Sequence record: OZ035775.1
Origin: Sashavirus BDX09P1
Length of the DNA: 58,371 bases
Strand: one strand, 5' to 3'
A model generated the notes under the pieces. It worked only from the letters and a program-made list of their open reading frames with translations, searched no databases and had not been told where the DNA came from. This document shows positions 5,717 through 15,851 of this stretch, one piece after another (the stretch's first letter is position 1; the number at the start of each line of letters is the position of its first letter). A program made the translations under genes and the position numbers.

Positions 5717-7480
5717 ATGAATAAGTTTACTGGAAATATTCATAATTACCCGCGCTGGCGTGATGCCTACGCAAATGACGAACGTATCTGGCGAAAAGGT
5801 CAGCCACGACCGGATTACAAACAGTGTTACATTGACCGTATTAACCTGTTAAACCGTATGCGCACGGATCGGGCAATTGTCCCGGTACTGAAAAAATATT
5901 ACGAAACAAACCCGGTAGCATTCATTCTCGACTGGGCGTTTACTTATGATCCGCGTAACGTCGGTACTGAATACCCACCAAATATGCCTTTCTGCCTTTT
6001 CGAACGTCAGATCGACATGGTTCAGTTTGTTTATGAAGCGCTTGAAGACAAAGAAAAAGGGCTTTGGGAAAAATCGCGAGATTATGGTGCGACCTGGGTA
6101 GCCTGTGGTTTGTCCGTGTGGGCGTGGCTGTATCGTCCTGGTTCGTCAGTTGGCTGGGGATCACGTAAAGAGCAGCTTGTTGATAAATTGGGCGACCCGG
6201 ATAGTATTTTTGAAAAGATTCGCCAGATTATCCGCGCATTACCGCCGGAATTACGTCCTGTTGGCCTGCGTGAAAAAGACCATCTGGTTTACATGAAATG
6301 CATCAACCCAGAAAACGGTGCAACAATTACTGGTGAAGCTGGCAATAACATCGGTCGTGGTGGTCGTAAATCTGTCTATTTTCTCGACGAGGCAGCACAC
6401 GTAGATCGTCCTGAACTGATCGAAGCGTCGTTGTCAGCTAACACCAACGTTCGTATCGACATCAGTTCAGTTAACGGTGTTGGTAACGTTTTTTATCGTA
6501 ATCGTAAAGCTGGTCTGGAATGGGAACCGGGTAAGAAATTACCTCGTGGTAAATTGCGTGTCATGGTTCTGGACTGGCGTGATCACCCGGCTAAAGACGA
6601 CGAATGGTATAAACGAGAAAAACAATCGTTTGCTGAAAAAGGTTTACAGCATATTTTCGCACAGGAAGTTGACCGCGATTATGCCGCTGCTGTTCAGGGC
6701 GTGTTGATTAAAGCTGAATGGGTACGCGCTGCTTTTGACGCTTTCCGTGACACAGAATGGCGCAAAGCTAACGGACTACTTACACCAACAGGTCAACGTA
6801 TCGCCGGACAGGATGCCGCAGACGGTGGTGAAGACGCAAGCGCACTGGTAATTGCTCACGGTGTATTCCTGACACATTTGCAGCTTGACCACAGAGGCGC
6901 TGAACTGGCTGCACCAGGGATGTTGACGATGGCTAATATGCTGGGTGTTGATGAATACTGGTACGAAGTTAACGGTGTTGGTACAGGTGTTAAAGTAGCG
7001 GCAAATGACCGGAAAGATACTCTACGCTTCCGTGTGCGCCCGTGGTTACCGAATGGAAAAGTTGTGGATCCGGGCGGTGATATTATCGGTGGTACGAAAC
7101 CTGGTGACAAAGACCGTAAATCAAACAAAGATTATTTCTCAAATTATAAAGCACAGGCATCGTGGGCGTTACGCCTGCGTTGTCAGCGAATTTATAAATG
7201 GTATGTGGAAGGTCAACCACAGGATCCAGACGAAATCATTCTGATTGATCCATCACTGGAAAATGCACAACGGTTAGAAGCTGAGTTAAGCCAGCCAACG
7301 TATACAAGTAACGGTGCCGGGAAGATTGTGATCGACAAGAAACCAAACGGAAGTAAGTCACCAAACTTTTTCGATGCTGCGGTTATTGCACTATCACCAA
7401 AACGTACCGAATTCGTTGAAGAACCGTTTACTGGTGGTGTGAATCCTGTTGGTACGCCTGATTACGGTGACATTTTTTAA
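5717..7480 (+). CDS. terminase large subunit
   Basis: Walker A-like KSRDYGATW, Walker B-like VYFLDEAAHV, C-terminal nuclease-sized domain; start set at ATG 5717 because the upstream in-frame part is occupied by promoter P3. Confidence 0.85.
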   Translation: MNKFTGNIHNYPRWRDAYANDERIWRKGQPRPDYKQCYIDRINLLNRMRTDRAIVPVLKKYYETNPVAFILDWAFTYDPRNVGTEYPPNMPFCLFERQIDMVQFVYEALEDKEKGLWEKSRDYGATWVACGLSVWAWLYRPGSSVGWGSRKEQLVDKLGDPDSIFEKIRQIIRALPPELRPVGLREKDHLVYMKCINPENGATITGEAGNNIGRGGRKSVYFLDEAAHVDRPELIEASLSANTNVRIDISSVNGVGNVFYRNRKAGLEWEPGKKLPRGKLRVMVLDWRDHPAKDDEWYKREKQSFAEKGLQHIFAQEVDRDYAAAVQGVLIKAEWVRAAFDAFRDTEWRKANGLLTPTGQRIAGQDAADGGEDASALVIAHGVFLTHLQLDHRGAELAAPGMLTMANMLGVDEYWYEVNGVGTGVKVAANDRKDTLRFRVRPWLPNGKVVDPGGDIIGGTKPGDKDRKSNKDYFSNYKAQASWALRLRCQRIYKWYVEGQPQDPDEIILIDPSLENAQRLEAELSQPTYTSNGAGKIVIDKKPNGSKSPNFFDAAVIALSPKRTEFVEEPFTGGVNPVGTPDYGDIF

Positions 7481-7521
7481 ACAGTGTGGCGGGATTATTC
7501 CCGTCATTTTCTTTTTAATTC

Positions 7522-7553
7522 TTGACAAATTACATTATAAATGTTTGTAAATT
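7522..7553 (+). promoter_or_regulatory. promoter-like variant of conserved motif
   Basis: TTAATTC-TTGACA-AATTAC resembles motif core without full UP element; -10 uncertain (TAAATT about 20 bp downstream). Confidence 0.35.
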
Positions 7554-7640
7554 ATCTGTTAGATTAATGTAACACGTCTATACTCCTGCAGGTAACCAAT
7601 CGGTTACAGTTAATTAACATTCTCTCACAGGAGTTTCAAC

Positions 7641-8339
7641 ATGTCTGACATGACTTTAGTTCCCACTGGCGGTTTCGGCGGTGAAGCTGGCGCGGCTGCA
7701 CTTGGTGGTGGTATCGGCGGTCTTATCGGTTCCTGGTTCGGTAACGGCTGGGGTGGTGCCGGTGGTTGGGGTGGTCGTGGTATTGGTGCTGCTGAAGGTG
7801 TTGTTGTTCAGAACTCTCTGGATACTAACGCTATTCTTCAGGCTATTAATGCGGCGTCACTGGCTAACATTCAGGGTCAGAATAGTACTAACCTGACTGT
7901 TGAACGCTCAGCAGCTTCTACCTATAACGGTCTAACCCAACAAAACACACAAAACCTGCTGGCAAACGTTCAAGGTTTTGCAGGTCTGAACACTCAGATT
8001 CAACAGGGCACTAACACTGTGACCAATGCGATCTGTGCGTCTGAAACTGCGGCACTGACTCGTTCTTTCCAGGCACAGTTAGCGGCTGAGAAGTGTTGCT
8101 GCGAAACCAACCTGAATATCGAACGTCAGGCAGAAGCAACTCGTGCACTGATCCGTGATCAGTTCGCACAGTCTCAGGCTGTTCTGATTTGTGACCTGAA
8201 ATCTCAGATTCAAACCCGTGACTTCCAGTTGTCTCAATTGTCACAAACGTCTCAGTTGGCGTGCAAAATTAACCAGGTCGATCAGCTTATTAACTTCAAG
8301 CTGCCTACTCCGCAAACTCCACCGACTGGCTGCTGCTAA
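7641..8339 (+). CDS. glycine-zipper / Q-N-T-rich protein of unknown function
   Basis: N-terminal 45 aa almost only G/A/W (GGFGGEAGAAALGGGIGGLIGSWFGNGWGGAGGWGG), then Q/N/T-rich region with Cys pairs and C-terminal GCC; good RBS GGAG. Confidence 0.6.
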   Translation: MSDMTLVPTGGFGGEAGAAALGGGIGGLIGSWFGNGWGGAGGWGGRGIGAAEGVVVQNSLDTNAILQAINAASLANIQGQNSTNLTVERSAASTYNGLTQQNTQNLLANVQGFAGLNTQIQQGTNTVTNAICASETAALTRSFQAQLAAEKCCCETNLNIERQAEATRALIRDQFAQSQAVLICDLKSQIQTRDFQLSQLSQTSQLACKINQVDQLINFKLPTPQTPPTGCC

Positions 8340-8351
8340 TTGGTCAACTAA

Positions 8352-8373
8352 GCGCCTCTGTACGGGGCGCTTT
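8352..8373 (+). terminator. putative hairpin/attenuator
   Basis: GCGCCTC-tgtac-GGGGCGC followed by TTT. Confidence 0.4.
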
Positions 8374-8389
8374 AACAGGAGATAAGAGT

Positions 8390-8749
8390 ATGCATTACAA
8401 ACCGTATTACGTTATCAAAAAAGACGATGATGACGATGAAGAGGAAGATATAGAAATTCATCACCATCATCATTATCACCACGGGCATCACCCGGACACG
8501 ATGGGAGTATTTCATCATGATAGCTATGCTGGCGAACATGGTTCAGTTATGGCCCATGTTAAAGCACGTATGGATAACCCTCCTTCGACTTGGGCGTCGT
8601 ACCACGATAAGCCCGGCGGGATGATGTCCATTGTTGAAATGGAATATCGCGAACTGATGGAAGAAAAAACCGAAGGTTCGACGTCTGGTATTAAAAAAGA
8701 GCTAACGGATCTGGCTGCAGCCTGTATCCATGCACTTAAAAAGATGTAA
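8390..8749 (+). CDS. His-rich acidic protein
   Basis: DDDDDEEED followed by HHHHHYHHGHH; RBS GGAGA. Confidence 0.5.
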   Translation: MHYKPYYVIKKDDDDDEEEDIEIHHHHHYHHGHHPDTMGVFHHDSYAGEHGSVMAHVKARMDNPPSTWASYHDKPGGMMSIVEMEYRELMEEKTEGSTSGIKKELTDLAAACIHALKKM

Positions 8750-8765
8750 CTAACAGGAAACCGAC

Positions 8766-9269
8766 ATGCAGAATATTAACGCAGGTATGGGTGTCACCCA
8801 GTTTAACGGTATGAAACCGCGAAGCACTATTAACATTGGTGGTGTGGAGTGGTCATTACGTCGGGATGCCACTGACTCAACAACAATGTTTCCTCACCCG
8901 AAGGTAAGCTGGCTTAACGCTGGTTGTGAACCGATGGGTGATGGTCGTTTTCATTACTGTTGGATTTTGGGTGTAATTCCCCCGACACCGGGGACAATCG
9001 AACGACCTGTTAATGTGATGTATGTTGGTTTCCATCAATTTAAAATTAATATCGCACCTAATTCAATTAGTCAGGCTGATTTAGACAGGATGCATGTTTA
9101 TGTCAGCGATACTTCTCATTTTGCTGGTGAATTTGTCAGTAAGTTTTTAGGTACAGAACCTGAACCTGTGGAAACCCGTGAAAATATCAGCCCGTGGCCC
9201 CCGATGAATGATCCTCGTGAGCAACCAAAAGTAGCCAAAAATAAGGTAAACGAAGATGACGAAGAATGA
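8766..9269 (+). CDS. hypothetical protein
   Basis: Track ORF 167 aa; acidic C-terminus. Confidence 0.45.
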   Translation: MQNINAGMGVTQFNGMKPRSTINIGGVEWSLRRDATDSTTMFPHPKVSWLNAGCEPMGDGRFHYCWILGVIPPTPGTIERPVNVMYVGFHQFKINIAPNSISQADLDRMHVYVSDTSHFAGEFVSKFLGTEPEPVETRENISPWPPMNDPREQPKVAKNKVNEDDEE

Positions 9270-9510
9270 AGGGGTAGACAAAGTAGTCGAAAGTCTGGGG
9301 TTACGCGCACACGTAATCGTAGACGAAGGTCACAGTCAAGAAGCGATCATGAAGTCGGCATTTAACGATTTTAAAGCGTTGGGTTCAATGAGTGGGATCA
9401 TGGCAGTGATGACTACCGGGAAATTGAGCCAGCAACAGTTAGATCTGGCGCAACGTATCGCTGTGAAAGTAATTGCAGTTTTAGGTCTTAAAGAGTCAGA
9501 AAAAGCGTAA
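9256..9510 (+). CDS. hypothetical protein
   Basis: Track ORF 84 aa, overlaps upstream gene by 14 bp. Confidence 0.4.
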   Translation: MTKNEGVDKVVESLGLRAHVIVDEGHSQEAIMKSAFNDFKALGSMSGIMAVMTTGKLSQQQLDLAQRIAVKVIAVLGLKESEKA

Positions 9511-9523
9511 AAAGGGGGTTACT

Positions 9524-9688
9524 ATGTGTTGTAGAACATCGTGTTGTCTGGGAAGTCCTGCTACGCAATTTGGTCTTCTTCAGTCACAGATTGCACATAC
9601 TCAGGCCGTTTTCAGAGGGTTTACCAGTCCGTTCATAGTACCATTACAGTTTTCCGCGTTCACGTTTAGACCTTTTGTATTTTACTGA
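9524..9688 (+). CDS. small Cys-rich peptide (54 aa)
   Basis: Below threshold; AAGGGGG RBS 6 bp before ATG; N-terminus MCCRTSCC. Confidence 0.3.
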   Translation: MCCRTSCCLGSPATQFGLLQSQIAHTQAVFRGFTSPFIVPLQFSAFTFRPFVFY

Positions 9689-9696
9689 TCGACTTT

Positions 9697-9723
9697 GCCC
9701 CGGACAGTTCCGGGGCTTTTTTT
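9697..9723 (+). terminator. intrinsic terminator ending the 7.6-9.7 kb operon
   Basis: GCCCCGG-acagtt-CCGGGGC + TTTTTTT. Confidence 0.65.
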
Positions 9724-10004
9724 CAACGTCTGAAAGATGAAAGAACAGCGAGGCTAACAGAACCTAAACCGAATATGACGGCGTATGTTAGCTGATGTTG
9801 AAGTTTCACAAAACCGTAATAATCGCTTTGTAATTCTACGATGTCAAAAGCAATTGAAAAACTGGTTACCAGCAACATGATTGAAAGAACACGAATCAGA
9901 GCAACTGCTAATCCTATCACCCCTTGTTCTTTTTTCTCAGTTGTAATAACGACAACAATCATTAACAGAAGTGAGAAAACAATATACATGTATTCCATAA
10001 TCAT
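9723..10004 (-). CDS. hypothetical membrane protein
   Basis: Two or three hydrophobic segments. Confidence 0.4.
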   Translation of the reverse strand: MIMEYMYIVFSLLLMIVVVITTEKKEQGVIGLAVALIRVLSIMLLVTSFSIAFDIVELQSDYYGFVKLQHQLTYAVIFGLGSVSLAVLSSFRR

Positions 10005-10158
10005 TAGTCCCGATAAACTTCAGCACACCCATAAATTTTACCAGGGTTGTAAGCCTGTTCAGCTTGTAAAGCACCCTGACACTGTTCGAACGTCATGATA
10101 CGTTCTGTCACAGGTTCAATAGCCACACCATGCAGAACAAGCACTAGTACATAACCAA

Positions 10159-10494
10159 TTAACATTCTCTTAGAGTCTCCGCCCAGTCCAGACCGTGTAG
10201 GTTTACAGTTGCAAGCCTCACTTTTGGGATACCGTAACGACGATTATCCCAAAATTCATCACAGAGTTCTGGTTCACTAAAATACCCGTAAACAACCCCG
10301 TAACTATTCGTGGCTATATAGTTAATATCTTCAGGAACAGTTAAAGACAAACCAAAATAATTGACCGTTTTATACACGTCTGCACTAGCCAGTGTCATTT
10401 TACAATCTGGCGCTTCTTCGTGGATATCCCACGATTTACCACAGTGTGAACACTGATATTCATCGTTACAGCGAATAGCGTTTACATGATTCAT
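10159..10494 (-). CDS. hypothetical protein
   Basis: Track ORF; CxxC pair near N-terminus. Confidence 0.4.
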   Translation of the reverse strand: MNHVNAIRCNDEYQCSHCGKSWDIHEEAPDCKMTLASADVYKTVNYFGLSLTVPEDINYIATNSYGVVYGYFSEPELCDEFWDNRRYGIPKVRLATVNLHGLDWAETLREC

Positions 10495-10496
10495 GA

Positions 10497-10799
10497 TTAT
10501 TCCTCTTTGAGTGATTCACCTAATAAATGTTTCATGCGTGTCAAACGTTTACATTGATTAATAAACGCCTGATTTGACCACGGTTGACTGAATTTACCAG
10601 TTGATACAGGATTCATTAAACCAGGGATAACCACAGATGCATCTGCTAATACTCTTTCACCATCCATTGTTATTTCAATATTCAAACCGTTATTAACGTT
10701 GAACATGTGACAGCCTGTTTCAACACCCGTACCCACATAACGAGCCATACATGACATACCCTGAACAGTCAGAAATTGTTTGTAATTCTCATATGTCAT
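10497..10799 (-). CDS. hypothetical protein
   Basis: Track ORF. Confidence 0.4.
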   Translation of the reverse strand: MTYENYKQFLTVQGMSCMARYVGTGVETGCHMFNVNNGLNIEITMDGERVLADASVVIPGLMNPVSTGKFSQPWSNQAFINQCKRLTRMKHLLGESLKEE

Positions 10800-11092
10800 T
10801 TAACGGTTCCTTCTACAAACCACATGGACGCAAGATACGCACACCCGGCAATTTTATGTTCGTGTTTAGGTTCGAAACTACCCGGGATCACTTTGATATG
10901 CGCGTGAGCATCTTTAAAGTTCACACCTTCAACAGCAATTAAGCGTTTTTCTACTTGGTCATTATAAGTTTTTAAAAGTTCGTCGCGCATTACTCGACAT
11001 GTTTCACACGGGCATTTCATAACAGGTTCAGTACAAGCATTAGGATCTAATGACGCAATACCAAAACCACTACCGTTGCCGTACATACTCAC
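10796..11092 (-). CDS. hypothetical protein with CPCETC cluster
   Basis: Track ORF; first gene after P4. Confidence 0.4.
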   Translation of the reverse strand: MSMYGNGSGFGIASLDPNACTEPVMKCPCETCRVMRDELLKTYNDQVEKRLIAVEGVNFKDAHAHIKVIPGSFEPKHEHKIAGCAYLASMWFVEGTVK

Positions 11093-11227: not shown

Positions 11228-12583
11228 ATGGCTGATCAACAATTCGAACAACTAGCCGTTGCCGGGTACAGTCGAACAGGCAACCAGGTAAACGACGATT
11301 TTCTTCCTAAACTGAATGGTAAACAAGGCCGTCGTATTCTTCGTCAGATGGCTGAGAACGACGAAACGATCGGTGGTGTACTGTTTGCTATGAGTAGCGT
11401 TTATCGTTCTGTACAGTGGATTTTTGACCCGTCTGACAAAGATGATCCAGAAGCTATCCGTTATTCAGAATGGTTACAGGATGCTATTGAAAATAAAATG
11501 GGTGATCCGCGTGGTGCACTCCCGGATGATACCTGGTCCGCGTTCGTTCAGACATGGACAGACGTTGATGTATTCGGCTGGGGTTGGTATGACATCTGGG
11601 TCAAAGATCTTGATGACGGTACAGTGGGTATTGCCCGTCTGGTTCCTGTAGCACCTGAAACGCTTGCTGGCTGGGATATTGAAGAACCGACAGGTTATGT
11701 TCGTGGTATTTATCAATGTTCACCTAATCAGGGTACAACGACGTTAATCACACGTGACCGTTCGCTTCATTTGATTTCAAGTCCGAATAAAGGTAACCCG
11801 GAAGGTTTATCACTGCTGCGCACAGCTTATCGCCCGTGGTACTACAAAAAAGTGAATATGGAAATCGAATCCATACTTGCCGAACGTGGTACAGGGTTCC
11901 CGGTAATTACTGTCAACGCAGATATTAAGAAAGCGGCTAATGATCCTAATGTTCCTGAACAACAGCGTCAGGCAGCACAGGCGATGATTGATGACTATGA
12001 AAACATCGTCGCTAATATCAAACGCAATGAACAATCAGGACTGGTGATTTATTCTAAACCGTATATCACGGGTTATGATAACGAAACAGGTGTTACTACG
12101 TACGGTGGTGAACAACAGGTGAAACTGGAATTCGTTACACCTAACCAGACCAGTTCTGTGGATATTGACCGGACGATTAAACGCCTGGATACCAGTATTG
12201 CCCGTGCGTTACTGGCTGATTTTTTATTTTTTGGCAGTTCGGGTAATACAAGTAATGGTGCTAACCTGGGTAATCGTACTGAACTGTGGATCCGCGCAAT
12301 GCAATCACGTATTGACAGCATTGTAGAATGTGTTAATCGTCAGTTGATACCGCAGTTATGGTCATTAAACGCATTTCCTGATGAATACCGCCCGTCGATT
12401 CGCGCCGGGTCGATCAGTAAAGACAGTATCGAGACGTTGACCACTGCACTTGCACGACTTGCACAAGCTGGTGCGCCTGTATTCCCGGATCCAGACCTTC
12501 AGGAATACGTGTATAAAGAGGCTGGTCTACCTATTACGGGGATTGATAAAGCCGGGGACGGATTACCGTCTATTGACGACTGA
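11228..12583 (+). CDS. portal protein
   Basis: 451 aa, size and placement typical of portal; general portal-like composition; family not determined. Confidence 0.65.
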   Translation: MADQQFEQLAVAGYSRTGNQVNDDFLPKLNGKQGRRILRQMAENDETIGGVLFAMSSVYRSVQWIFDPSDKDDPEAIRYSEWLQDAIENKMGDPRGALPDDTWSAFVQTWTDVDVFGWGWYDIWVKDLDDGTVGIARLVPVAPETLAGWDIEEPTGYVRGIYQCSPNQGTTTLITRDRSLHLISSPNKGNPEGLSLLRTAYRPWYYKKVNMEIESILAERGTGFPVITVNADIKKAANDPNVPEQQRQAAQAMIDDYENIVANIKRNEQSGLVIYSKPYITGYDNETGVTTYGGEQQVKLEFVTPNQTSSVDIDRTIKRLDTSIARALLADFLFFGSSGNTSNGANLGNRTELWIRAMQSRIDSIVECVNRQLIPQLWSLNAFPDEYRPSIRAGSISKDSIETLTTALARLAQAGAPVFPDPDLQEYVYKEAGLPITGIDKAGDGLPSIDD

Positions 12584-15678: not shown

Positions 15679-15823
15679 AAAATTATTACGTGAACTTGAA
15701 ATAGACTACGAACGAGCGCAAAAAGCGTTACAGTTTCTGGAAGAACAGATCCGCGAAGTTAAGAACCGCATTCAGGGAACTGAAAAACGTAATCTTCCAC
15801 GCCCGTAACACGTGATATAATCG

Positions 15824-15851
15824 GCCTCAGTGTGTTAACTGAGGCTTTTTT
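15824..15851 (+). terminator. intrinsic terminator
   Basis: GCCTCAG-tgtgttaa-CTGAGGC + TTTTTT, directly before ATG 15852. Confidence 0.6.

What the first reader, a model, noticed from the sequence alone, without database searches (positions are those of the whole stretch)
7522..9723. Self-contained accessory operon led by a glycine-zipper / Q-N-rich protein
Between terminase and portal sits a plus-strand unit with its own promoter-like motif, a perfect palindrome GTAACC-aatc-GGTTAC just before the RBS (~7590-7605), and a strong terminator. Its first gene (7641-8339) has an N-terminal 45 aa made almost only of G/A/W arranged like a glycine-zipper membrane segment, then a Q/N/T-rich region with Cys pairs and a C-terminal GCC. 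This looks more like a membrane-active or bacteriocin-like effector than a virion protein, and I recognise no family.
Basis: partly seen in the sequence, partly recalled or inferred. Interest (0 to 1): 0.7.

Follow-up and report, generated by a model that had tools for sequence, protein, structure and literature searches.

The report
Mobile phage operon, abundant glycine-zipper protein
A self-contained set of four to five genes that moves between unrelated virulent enterobacterial phages is built to produce capsid-protein-like amounts of a glycine-rich, cysteine-marked rod-shaped protein that matches no characterised family, so it marks a common but unstudied phage function.

Summary
Window 7522-9723 is one plus-strand transcription unit with five real genes (g1-g5) in a 9NA/Sasha-like coliphage, 99% identical to vB_EcoS_PJ16.

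- **Module:** The order g1-g2-g3-g4 recurs in Nonanavirus, Seuratvirus/Nonagvirus, T1-like, Segzyvirus and PY100-like phages, and in much more distant metagenomic phages. It sits at different genome positions, often right after a lateral tail-fibre gene.
- **Regulation:** Every lineage keeps a -10-like hexamer, a 5' stem-loop with compensatory changes, and a GC hairpin directly after g1.
- **Expression:** g1 has the second-highest codon optimisation of 72 ORFs, just below the major capsid protein. g2-g5 are average or lower.
- **g1 protein:** It has a conserved GxxxG head that is too weakly hydrophobic for a classical transmembrane helix. A polar predicted helix follows, carrying a near-invariant Cys-Cys-Cys, then a Pro/Thr tail.
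- **Homology:** No characterised family or fold matches g1 or g3. g2 resembles MazG/HisE only weakly.
- **Dispensability:** g1 is deleted, fused or frameshifted in several cultured phages.
- **Annotation:** The "lateral tail fiber chaperone" label is an annotation artefact.

Function is unproven. My best guess, at about 0.35, is an abundant self-associating protein acting on the host membrane or envelope. A virion fibre and a cytoplasmic polymer or decoy remain possible.

The parts
7486..7507 (+). Terminator-like hairpin ending the terminase transcription unit, just upstream of the module
   Evidence: 9-pair stem followed by a T-rich tail. A terminator sits at the same place in the AVIO78A annotation and upstream of the module in other lineages.
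7522..7527 (+).
   Evidence: Read from the sequence. The consensus scan finds no matching -10 at 16-18 nt. The AVIO78A record annotates a promoter here. CTTGACA/CTTTACA recurs in the alignment of other lineages.
7579..7584 (+). -10-like hexamer TATACT of the conserved module promoter, with a weak -35-like CTGTTA at 7556-7561
   Evidence: each lineage has TATACT, TATGCT, CATACT, TAGAAT or a similar hexamer 5-9 nt before the stem-loop. L023 and L032 show a full TTGTCA-N16/17-TAGAAT promoter.
7592..7607 (+). 5' stem-loop GTAACC-aatc-GGTTAC, predicted to sit at or near the 5' end of the g1 mRNA
   Evidence: There are 15 different stem sequences at the same position in 26 distinct upstream regions. 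Pair counts: 86.5% paired, 11 changes on both sides, G-U wobbles present, 0 of 500 shuffles reach the score.
7629..7633 (+). Shine-Dalgarno AGGAG, 7 nt before the g1 ATG
   Evidence: Read from the sequence.
7641..8339 (+). g1, 232 aa: glycine-zipper head (aa 10-47), polar predicted helix (aa 59-218), Pro/Thr tail ending in GCC; the abundant product of the module
   Evidence: Codon score Fop is 0.722, second of 72 ORFs (major capsid protein 0.730). It matches PHROG 9288, function unknown.
7668..7781 (+). Codons for the glycine-zipper head of g1 (aa 10-47)
   Evidence: GxxxG at G22, G26, G30, G34, G38, G42. G26 and G30 are invariant and G22 and G34 nearly invariant in 73 sequences. AlphaFold2 pLDDT is below 50. 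Hydrophobicity is weak.
8094..8102 (+). Codons for the Cys-Cys-Cys motif (aa 152-154), the hallmark of the g1 family
   Evidence: Invariant or nearly invariant in close relatives. At least 90% conserved in 41 representatives sharing only 21-61% identity. Duplicated in distant members.
8350..8374 (+). GC-rich hairpin with a short U run directly after the g1 stop codon; a likely partial terminator or 3' stabiliser
   Evidence: -17 kcal/mol, z = -2.8. An equivalent hairpin follows g1 in all 10 lineages folded, including the distant L060 and L061. The AVIO78A record annotates it as a terminator.
8390..8749 (+). g2, 119 aa: acidic and His-rich N-terminus followed by a conserved helical core (PPxTW...EMEYxEL...KELTDLAAA)
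   Evidence: Similarity to MazG/HisE-type all-alpha NTP pyrophosphohydrolases is weak and inconclusive.
8766..9269 (+). g3, 167 aa: globular alpha/beta domain with invariant D34, D37, H44, W49, N51, C65, W66, H90, D105, R108, H110, Y112 and a disordered acidic tail
9256..9510 (+). g4, 84 aa: small soluble protein with a conserved TGKL motif; its start overlaps the end of g3 by 14 nt
9524..9688 (+). g5, 54 aa: optional small protein with a conserved N-terminal MCxxTxxCCLGSPATQ motif
   Evidence: It occurs only in Nonanavirus, Seuratvirus and phage yong3. It shows no similarity to g1.
9697..9723 (+). Strong intrinsic terminator closing the module (stem 9697-9716, then seven T)
   Evidence: It lies at a convergent junction with the minus-strand gene ending at 9723.

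Best explanation
This is a horizontally mobile accessory operon of phages that is organised as one major product plus a few minor partners.

**How it is expressed.** It is transcribed from its own sigma-70-type promoter (-10 TATACT, 7579-7584). The mRNA begins with a conserved stem-loop (7592-7607). A GC hairpin directly after g1 (8350-8374) probably stops or stabilises most transcripts there. As a result g1 should be made in capsid-protein-like amounts and g2-g5 in small amounts.

**What g1 is.** g1 is a non-enzymatic, low-charge protein. It has a conserved glycine-zipper head, a long polar predicted helix marked by a near-invariant Cys-Cys-Cys, and a Pro/Thr tail.

**What I think it does.** Most likely g1 self-associates through the head and the cysteine-marked rod. 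It would then act in bulk on the membrane or envelope of the infected cell. It could, for example, help or time envelope breakdown, or close the cell to other phages. The soluble g2-g4 proteins would be low-copy assembly or control partners.

**Shown:** the operon, its mobility, the conserved regulatory design, the codon bias, dispensability, and the absence of characterised relatives.
**Inferred:** the transcription start, attenuation at the g1 hairpin, self-association, the membrane target and the physiological effect.
For: **Mobility**
- The order g1-g2-g3-g4 is kept in about 40 loci from at least five unrelated phage groups, at different genome positions.
- Far-diverged versions also keep g1 with g2, and in L059, L061 and L062 with g3 as well.
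- The module is absent from 5,426 complete E. coli genomes.

**Abundance design**
- g1 Fop is 0.722 against 0.730 for the major capsid protein; the median is 0.526 and g2-g5 score 0.36-0.53.
- g1 has an AGGAG ribosome-binding site.
- The 5' stem-loop is conserved with covariation.
- A GC hairpin follows g1 in all 10 lineages folded.

**Partner not specific to one virion or host**
- The head is the best conserved part of g1, across phages with unrelated virions (siphoviruses and the myovirus-type PY100/L060) and different hosts.

**Membrane lead**
- GxxxG repeats are conserved.
- About 7 of 41 family representatives have a clearly more hydrophobic stretch at the same position (Kyte-Doolittle score at least 1.54). 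Examples are WLALLVIAMICGYGGF, LIGILLIAALF and WWVLIILFALIF.
- L046 has MMVLLFLILIL there.

**Not an essential virion part**
- 9NA lacks g1 and g2.
- SHIN8 and KurtStettler carry tail-fibre::g1 deletion fusions.
- AVIO78A, SeppeHuegi and VogelGryff have split or frameshifted g1.
- T5-like phages keep only pseudogenes.
Against: - In this phage, and in most of the family, the head is too weakly hydrophobic for a classical transmembrane helix (median about +4.9 kcal/mol on a simple Hessa sum). AlphaFold2 predicts it disordered.
- g1 has no signal peptide. g2-g5 have no hydrophobic segment, so any complex forms in the cytoplasm.
- The predicted rod shows no clean 3.5-residue hydrophobic periodicity. 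Confidence is only moderate: pLDDT 56-68 for residues 59-130 and 72-89 for 130-210, with pTM 0.25.
- Its low-charge, Q/N/S/T-rich composition resembles phage fibres (own knowledge).
- In many lineages the module directly follows a lateral tail-fibre gene; 8 of 10 large upstream ORFs match tail-fibre PHROGs.
- The phage already has holin, endolysin and spanin genes elsewhere.
- No expression, localisation or toxicity data exist in the papers I could search.
Confidence: 0.35

Rival explanations
1. g1 is a non-essential virion appendage, such as a head or tail decoration fibre or whisker. It would be assembled in the cytoplasm with help from g2-g4 and carried on released particles. Its cysteines would oxidise to lock the oligomer after lysis.
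For: - Codon bias equals that of the major capsid protein, as expected for a high-copy virion part.
- A major gene followed by a hairpin and then minor genes is the layout of fibre and pilus operons (the comparison is from own knowledge).
- The composition is low-charge and Q/N/S/T-rich, and distant members carry variable numbers of QGFxGxN units.
- The module directly follows lateral tail-fibre genes in Seuratvirus, T1-like, T5-like and other lineages.
- It is lost in laboratory isolates, as side tail fibres and decoration proteins often are (the comparison is from own knowledge).
- g2-g5 are soluble.
Against: - The module and the g1 head stay conserved across phages with unrelated capsids and tails, including myovirus-type genomes. 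That is hard to reconcile with a specific attachment site.
- Several family members have a membrane-like hydrophobic head.
- In PY100-type and 9NA-type genomes the module lies outside the structural gene block.
- The PY100 record, whose paper title reports a virion proteome, still calls ORF29-32 hypothetical. This is weak evidence, because I could not read the paper.
Confidence: 0.2
2. g1 forms an abundant cytoplasmic polymer or condensate, or acts as a stoichiometric decoy or sponge. It might organise infection or neutralise a host defence that laboratory strains lack. g2-g4 would be cofactors, with g2 possibly a nucleotide pyrophosphohydrolase.
For: - g1 has no export signal and its partners are soluble.
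- Gly-rich plus Q/N-rich low-complexity sequence is typical of self-associating domains (own knowledge).
- High abundance suits stoichiometric action.
- Loss on E. coli K-12 hosts fits a function needed only against natural hosts.
- g2 has weak MazG/PRA-PH similarity, and E85, E88 and E104 are at least 90% conserved.
Against: - No PADLOC or other family match exists.
- KarinMuster is reported as markedly sensitive to restriction-modification systems and to the Old defence system.
- The conserved cysteine clusters and the hydrophobic heads of some members are not explained.
- The g2 similarity weakens with a deeper profile: E rises to 0.17 for AF_0060.
- D107 of the ExxD motif is not among the positions at least 90% conserved in 40 sequences and appears replaced in distant members.
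Confidence: 0.15
3. g1 is a bacteriocin-like or otherwise membrane-permeabilising effector. It would be released in bulk at lysis and act from outside on neighbouring cells.
For: - The Gly/Trp-rich head resembles, in composition only, glycine-rich microcins and colicin translocation domains (own knowledge).
- g1 is abundant and would be released by lysis.
Against: - No Pfam, NCBIfam or PADLOC family matches any of the five products.
- The start MSDMTLVPTGG does not fit the double-glycine leader consensus (own knowledge).
- No exporter, immunity or toxin domain accompanies g1.
- The family also occurs in a Firmicutes-type prophage with a different cell envelope.
Confidence: 0.07
4. g1 is a lateral tail-fibre chaperone, as the PJ16 record annotates it.
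For: - The PJ16_015 product name says so.
- The module is adjacent to lateral tail-fibre genes in many lineages.
Against: - The only source record found that carries this name among the cluster members read is KurtStettler QXV82366 (510 aa). Its first ~290 residues are the C-terminal part of the tail fibre, with an SDRDLK motif I recognise (own knowledge) as the self-cleaving intramolecular chaperone. That part is fused by a deletion to g1 from about residue 15.
- Those fibres therefore carry their own chaperone.
- Nonanavirus, Segzyvirus and PY100-type phages have the module with no adjacent lateral fibre gene.
- A chaperone would not need capsid-level expression.
Confidence: 0.03

Closest known systems
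phiX174 H (DNA pilot) protein (described from own knowledge)
   Same: Same overall layout: a Gly/Ala-rich GxxxG N-terminus followed by a long Q/N-rich helix. In H, that helix oligomerises into a tube across the cell envelope.
   Different: No sequence similarity was detected; the profile search of solved structures found only a chance-level Psb31 match. g1 belongs to tailed phages, is dispensable and appears to be made in bulk. It has a Cys-Cys-Cys motif and shows no heptad periodicity.
Glycine-zipper membrane segments (VacA, MscS type; Pfam Gly-zipper families PF13488, PF13441, PF05433) (own knowledge)
   Same: Tandem GxxxG repeats, here six in a row, four of them conserved.
   Different: Too weakly hydrophobic to span a membrane by simple scales. 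No Pfam hit at E up to 0.1.
i-spanins (lambda Rz type) and class III holins (T4 T) (own knowledge)
   Same: An N-terminal membrane-seeking segment plus a long helical domain with conserved cysteines, in a phage late-function context. One distant homologue sits three genes upstream of a holin and endolysin.
   Different: No true transmembrane helix and no partner lipoprotein. The module is not next to the lysis genes in this phage, which has its own holin, endolysin and spanin. No homology was found.
T4 fibritin, phi29 head fibre and similar dispensable virion fibres (own knowledge)
   Same: A non-essential, elongated helical protein that is often next to tail-fibre genes and is readily lost in laboratory stocks.
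   Different: No homology. The most conserved part of g1 is a glycine-rich head shared by phages with unrelated virions. Virion presence has not been tested.
Pilus operons of the pap/fim type, as a regulatory analogy (own knowledge)
   Same: A major-subunit gene followed by a hairpin that limits expression of downstream minor or assembly genes, together with a stable major-subunit mRNA.
   Different: This is a regulatory analogy only. There is no usher, chaperone or secretion signal, and no sequence relationship.
MazG/HisE all-alpha NTP pyrophosphohydrolases (for g2)
   Same: An ExxE...ExxD-like motif (E85, E88, E104, D107). Sub-threshold Pfam hits: PRA-PH in 3 of 6 members, MazG in 2 of 6. 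A match to PDB 2p06 (AF_0060).
   Different: All scores are below the curated cut-offs. Part of the 2p06 score comes from its His tag. The deeper profile weakens the match to E = 0.17. D107 is not among the positions at least 90% conserved. The conserved core is only about 70 residues.

Membership tests
Glycine-zipper transmembrane segment | Tandem (G/A/S)xxxGxxxG repeats | tested here: met
   G22, G26, G30, G34, G38 and G42. G26 and G30 are invariant and G22 and G34 nearly invariant in 73 sequences.
Glycine-zipper transmembrane segment | A segment hydrophobic enough to span the bilayer | tested here: not met
   Best 19-residue Kyte-Doolittle score 1.14; simple Hessa sum +4.9 kcal/mol. The control membrane ORF 9723-10004 scores 2.56 and -1.0. 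About 7 of 41 relatives are clearly more hydrophobic (Kyte-Doolittle at least 1.54).
Glycine-zipper transmembrane segment | Match to the Pfam Gly-zipper models | tested here: not met
   No Pfam family at E up to 0.1.
Class II bacteriocin / microcin | Double-glycine leader, and a dedicated exporter and immunity gene in the locus | tested here: not met
   The start MSDMTLVPTGG does not fit the leader consensus (own knowledge). g2-g5 have no transporter or membrane features. No Pfam, NCBIfam or PADLOC hits.
Holin / spanin lysis proteins | At least one true transmembrane domain or a lipoprotein signal, and linkage to an endolysin | tested here: not met
   No transmembrane domain or lipobox. The lysis cassette lies elsewhere in the closely related PJ16 genome (PJ16_063-066). 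Linkage is seen only in one distant Firmicutes-type prophage.
Tail-fibre chaperone (intramolecular Peptidase_S74 type, or Tfa/gp38 type) | Presence of the chaperone domain in the protein | tested here: not met
   g1 has no Pfam hit. The label comes from a fusion protein whose N-terminal ~290 residues are tail-fibre sequence.
Canonical coiled coil | A 3.5-residue hydrophobic periodicity along the helix | tested here: not met
   Spectral peaks fall at 4.2 residues (aa 59-134) and 5.75 residues (aa 135-218), not at 3.5. AlphaFold2 still predicts one helix spanning 59-218.
Virion structural protein | Detected in purified virions | not testable with these tools
   No proteome data could be read; the 9NA-like and PY100 papers are not held. 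The only hit to a PHROG annotated as a virion structural protein is weak (E = 2e-4) and found for 1 of 41 members.
Virion structural protein | Required for plaque formation | tested here: not met
   Viable isolates carry deleted, fused or frameshifted g1.
MazG/HisE all-alpha NTP pyrophosphohydrolase (g2) | Significant profile match and a conserved ExxE(12-28)ExxD metal-binding motif | tested here: inconclusive
   Best Pfam E-values are 0.0018 (MazG) and 0.0066 (PRA-PH), below the curated cut-offs. PDB 2p06 scores E = 0.001 and then 0.17 with a deeper profile. E85, E88 and E104 are at least 90% conserved; D107 is not.
Known anti-phage defence or counter-defence proteins (PADLOC models) | Profile match | tested here: not met
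   Only a chance-level GajA hit for g4, E = 0.015.

The most novel reading that the evidence does not exclude
g1 founds a new class of phage proteins. In this reading they are bulk-produced, glycine-zipper-headed, cysteine-stapled rods that assemble with three dedicated partner proteins. The product would be a membrane-remodelling or pore/fusion-type structure, or alternatively an intermediate-filament-like polymer, in the infected cell. That would add an envelope-handling or cell-organising function beyond the holin-endolysin-spanin set. The function would be shared by T1-like, Seurat-like, 9NA-like and PY100-like phages and by more distant ones.
Probability: 0.15. Interest if true: 0.8.

Novelty: categorically new. 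Interest (0 to 1): 0.55.

Why it matters
The module is common. It appears in 178 GenBank phage records and about 130 protein clusters at 50% identity. It is carried by phage groups used as models and in therapy, including BASEL collection phages. Its lead gene appears tuned for expression at the level of the major capsid protein. Even so, none of its products has a characterised relative, and its only functional label in databases is an annotation error.

A dispensable protein made at that level implies a strong cost that must be repaid under natural conditions. Finding what it does would fill a real gap in how virulent enterobacterial phages handle their host. Candidate roles are envelope breakdown, exclusion, particle decoration or host takeover.

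The conserved layout of promoter, 5' stem-loop, gene and 3' hairpin is also a compact, portable high-expression cassette.

Tried and rejected
**Family and structure searches**
- Pfam, NCBIfam and PADLOC scans of all five proteins gave nothing usable.
- PHROGs returned only unknown-function families.
- Profile searches of solved structures gave chance-level hits for g1, g3 and g4.
- The AlphaFold2 model of g1 is one long helix with low pTM. Searching the viral structure library with it returned only a homologue.

**Leads tested and downgraded or dropped**
- The g2-MazG lead stayed sub-threshold and weakened with a deeper profile.
- The idea that g5 is a paralogue of a g1 segment was rejected: no alignment.
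- The 'tail fiber chaperone' label was traced to a fusion protein and rejected.
- A canonical coiled coil is not supported by hydrophobic periodicity.
- A classical transmembrane anchor is not supported by hydropathy.
- A shared phage-specific promoter motif (GTAACACGT before the -10) occurs next to a -10 only twice and is not enriched overall, so I dropped it.
- Rfam found only terminator-like sub-threshold hits, and there are no tRNAs.
- Tandem DNA repeats that might explain frameshifts amount to one weak 9-nt array.

**Literature**
- Nine searches found no study of these genes.
- The 9NA-like genomics paper and the PY100 virion-proteome paper are not held.


Full report
**What the window is.** The region is 99.2% identical to Escherichia phage vB_EcoS_PJ16 and 98.2% to KarinMuster (Bas82). 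It is 86% identical to the Salmonella phages Sasha and Sergei. These are virulent 9NA-like siphoviruses of the Nonanavirus/Sashavirus group. The large terminase ends at 7480 and the portal gene is 11228-12583.

**Checking the observation.** Five plus-strand ORFs fill 7641-9688: g1 (7641-8339, 232 aa), g2 (8390-8749, 119 aa), g3 (8766-9269, 167 aa), g4 (9256-9510, 84 aa) and g5 (9524-9688, 54 aa). All have homologues in other phages and match PHROG families of unknown function.

- The terminator is clear: stem 9697-9716 with 7 G-C pairs of 8, followed by seven T.
- The palindrome GTAACC-aatc-GGTTAC is at 7592-7607 and occurs once in the window. With one mismatch allowed, 0.11 matches are expected by chance, so it is not significant alone.
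- TTGACA at 7522-7527 is real, but it has no acceptable -10 at 16-18 nt.
- g1 residues 10-47 hold 20 Gly, 5 Ala and 3 Trp, with GxxxG spacing at G22 through G42.
- Residues 59-218 are 42% Q/N/S/T and only 12.5% charged.
- The cysteines are a triplet at 152-154, a pair at 231-232 and three singles.

**The unit is a mobile module.**
- The same gene order g1-g2-g3-g4 occurs in Seuratvirus and Nonagvirus, after the lateral tail-fibre gene and before the DNA polymerase block.
- It occurs in Hanrivervirus and other T1-like phages, after a tail-fibre gene that sits among replication genes.
- It occurs in Segzyvirus after the coat gene.
- It occurs in PY100-type Yersinia phages among early and DNA-metabolism genes.
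- A tblastn search finds g1 in 178 phage records.
- Among 42 further viral contigs, all with a close g1 (at least about 54% identity) carry g2 and g4 in order, and all but L027 carry g3.
- Local profile searches also find g2, and sometimes g3, next to far-diverged g1 genes: L045, L050, L052, L059, L061 and L062.
- In L060 a g1 relative is followed by ORFs of 83, 131 and 74 aa just upstream of the terminase of a sheath-bearing phage.
- g5 is optional and is present only in Nonanavirus, Seuratvirus and yong3.
- No copy exists in 5,426 complete E. coli genomes.
- A full HMM scan of 1.8 billion representatives finds about 130 clusters at 50% identity. Most are 200-290 aa and cover the whole profile.
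- One distant member lies in a Firmicutes-type prophage, between the tail genes and the holin and endolysin.

**The regulatory architecture is conserved.**
- Upstream regions from unrelated lineages share the same order: a terminator for the preceding gene, a -10-like hexamer (TATACT, TATGCT, CATACT or TAGAAT), and 5-9 nt later a 5-8 bp stem-loop. The ribosome-binding site follows.
- Some lineages show a full sigma-70-type promoter, TTGTCA-N16/17-TAGAAT.
- Fifteen different stem sequences occupy this position.
- On a 16-lineage alignment 86.5% of cells pair, against 23-44% for slid controls. Eleven cells show changes on both sides, G-U pairs occur, and no shuffle out of 500 reaches the observed score.
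- In this window the conserved -10 is TATACT (7579-7584), so the stem-loop would lie at the very 5' end of the mRNA. From general knowledge, that placement is known to stabilise E. coli transcripts.
- Directly after the g1 stop codon, every one of the 10 lineages folded has a stable GC-rich hairpin with a short U run. These include the most distant ones. In the window it lies at 8350-8374 (-17 kcal/mol, z = -2.8).
- g1 scores 0.722 on an optimal-codon index. That is second of 72 ORFs, just below the major capsid protein (0.730) and well above the median (0.526). g2-g5 score 0.36-0.53.

Taken together, the design should deliver very large amounts of g1 and small amounts of its partners. Transcription itself was not measured.

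**The g1 protein.**
- AlphaFold2, run with 73 sequences, gives a disordered head (residues 1-58, pLDDT below 50). It then predicts one continuous helix from 59 to 218, with pLDDT 56-68 up to about residue 130 and 72-89 from 130 to 210. A Pro-rich tail follows. The pTM is only 0.25.
- There is no clean heptad periodicity, so a canonical coiled coil is not established.
- Across 41 representatives sharing 21-61% identity, the conserved marks are the head (GSWFGNGxGGWG), QGFxGLN and a Cys-Cys-Cys at least 90% conserved. EGxATRxLI, LCDxK and a Thr/Pro-rich tail, sometimes ending in cysteines, are also conserved.
- Distant members have two Cys-Cys-Cys motifs and repeated QGFxGxN units.
- The head is only weakly hydrophobic in most members. 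The family median is about +4.9 kcal/mol on a simple Hessa sum and the Kyte-Doolittle score here is 1.14. The neighbouring true membrane ORF scores -1.0 and 2.56.
- About 7 of 41 members have a distinctly more hydrophobic stretch at the same position.

**The other genes.**
- g2 has an acidic, histidine-rich start (16 His in 119 residues) and a conserved helical core. Three of six members hit Pfam PRA-PH and two hit MazG, all below threshold. A small profile hits PDB 2p06 (AF_0060), partly through its His tag.
- With a 40-sequence profile the 2p06 match falls to E = 0.17, and the last acidic residue of the motif is not among the positions at least 90% conserved. I treat this as an unproven lead.
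- g4 and g5 have no informative matches.
- None of g2-g5 has a hydrophobic segment or a signal peptide.

**Dispensability and the misleading label.**
- Phage 9NA lacks g1, g2 and the start of g3.
- SHIN8 has a deletion that fuses the start of the lateral tail fibre to g1 residues 161-232.
- AVIO78A has a frameshift in the glycine-rich codons.
- SeppeHuegi and VogelGryff have split or truncated g1.
- T5-like Epseptimavirus genomes retain only a decayed g1 with in-frame stop codons.
- Among the cluster members read, the only source of the PJ16 name 'lateral tail fiber chaperone' is KurtStettler QXV82366. That is a 510-aa fusion of the fibre's C-terminal part to g1 from about residue 15. I recognise that C-terminal part as the self-cleaving chaperone domain. 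The name therefore says nothing about g1.
- Eight of ten large ORFs directly upstream of the module in other lineages match tail-fibre PHROGs. The association with that fibre family is real but unexplained, and a terminator and a promoter separate the module from the fibre gene.

**Interpretation.** The following is established:
- the operon exists and is mobile;
- its regulatory design is conserved;
- g1 codon bias matches that of the major capsid protein;
- the module is dispensable in culture;
- it has no characterised relatives.

For function I weigh three readings.

- **Membrane or envelope action** is favoured. The head is the most conserved part across phages with unrelated virions and hosts, which points to a universal partner. 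Some relatives carry a truly hydrophobic head. Against it are the weak hydrophobicity here, the absence of an export signal, the soluble partners, and the complete lysis cassette elsewhere in the genome.
- **A dispensable virion fibre** fits the abundance, the composition, the tail-fibre neighbourhood and the loss in laboratory stocks. It fits poorly with a conserved head in phages whose virions differ.
- **A cytoplasmic polymer or decoy** fits the lack of export signals and the loss on K-12 hosts. It does not explain the cysteines or the hydrophobic variants.

I put these at about 0.35, 0.20 and 0.15. A bacteriocin-like effector gets about 0.07 and a fibre chaperone about 0.03. The rest is unassigned.

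**Comparison with what is known.** By layout, g1 most resembles the phiX174 H pilot protein, glycine-zipper channel segments, i-spanins and dispensable virion fibres. It failed each membership feature I could test: hydrophobic span, Pfam match, lysis linkage, chaperone domain and heptad periodicity. The expression logic resembles pilus operons with a major subunit and attenuated minor genes. These comparisons come from my own knowledge and are analogies, not homology.

**Verdict.** This is a real, widespread and uncharacterised phage module. It is interesting mainly because a dispensable gene is tuned for capsid-level expression and carries a unique conserved Cys-Cys-Cys and glycine-zipper signature. 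Its mechanism remains open, so I set interest at about 0.55.

Noticed in passing
L001 4163-4861 (PJ16_015); protein P0365 (KurtStettler QXV82366): The database name 'lateral tail fiber chaperone' for g1 is the same as that of a 510-aa KurtStettler protein. In that protein a deletion fused the tail fibre's C-terminal part to g1. A g1 fragment in JakobBernoulli is labelled 'putative sugar-binding protein'. Both labels are misleading.
   Followed up: yes
L013 1-22 (IMGVR_UViG_3300018478_000021): This public viral contig begins with Illumina TruSeq adapter sequence (CAGACGTGTGCTCTTCCGATCT) joined directly to the g1 promoter region. The contig end is untrimmed adapter.
   Followed up: no
window 9723-10004, minus strand: A 93-aa ORF convergent with the module is a clear multi-pass membrane protein (Kyte-Doolittle score 2.56). 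It ends at the module's terminator. It heads a block of six small minus-strand genes (9723-11092) that interrupt the terminase-portal interval.
   Followed up: partly
L008 4794-5390 (Salmonella phage vaffelhjerte, T5-like): T5-like Epseptimavirus genomes keep only a decayed g1 with in-frame stop codons, right after their lateral tail-fibre gene, and have no g2-g4. It looks like the remnant of a former fibre-plus-module block.
   Followed up: partly
L010 4614-5222 (SHIN8); L003 4125-4690 (9NA): Independent deletions remove g1. SHIN8 fuses the tail-fibre N-terminus to g1 residues 161-232. 9NA lacks g1, g2 and the first 28 residues of g3 but keeps g4 and g5.
   Followed up: yes
window 15805-15850: GTAACACGT followed by TATAAT, a 7-bp hairpin (CCTCAGT/ACTGAGG) and a T run lies just before an ATG. 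The same 9-mer precedes the g1 -10 (7569-7577). Only these two copies sit next to a -10, and the 9-mer is not enriched in the window overall.
   Followed up: partly
window 8390-8500 (g2 N-terminus): A run DDDDDEEED is followed by HHHHHYHHGHH. A His/Asp/Glu-rich N-terminus recurs in all enterobacterial g2 versions but not in distant ones. It may bind metal or simply be disordered.
   Followed up: partly
L027 6001-7277: One viral contig carries g1, g2 and g4 but no detectable g3, so g3 is not strictly required wherever the module occurs.
   Followed up: no
L058 8001-10811: A distant g1 relative with a hydrophobic head and an ECCC motif sits in a Firmicutes-type prophage. Three unrelated genes follow it, one with an HEMGH zinc-protease motif, and then a holin and an endolysin.
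   Followed up: partly
L046 3760-5079: A reverse-transcriptase-like ORF (YMDD motif) lies just upstream of a distant 310-aa g1 relative that has two CCC motifs. It could belong to a diversity-generating element or a group II intron. I did not examine it.
   Followed up: no
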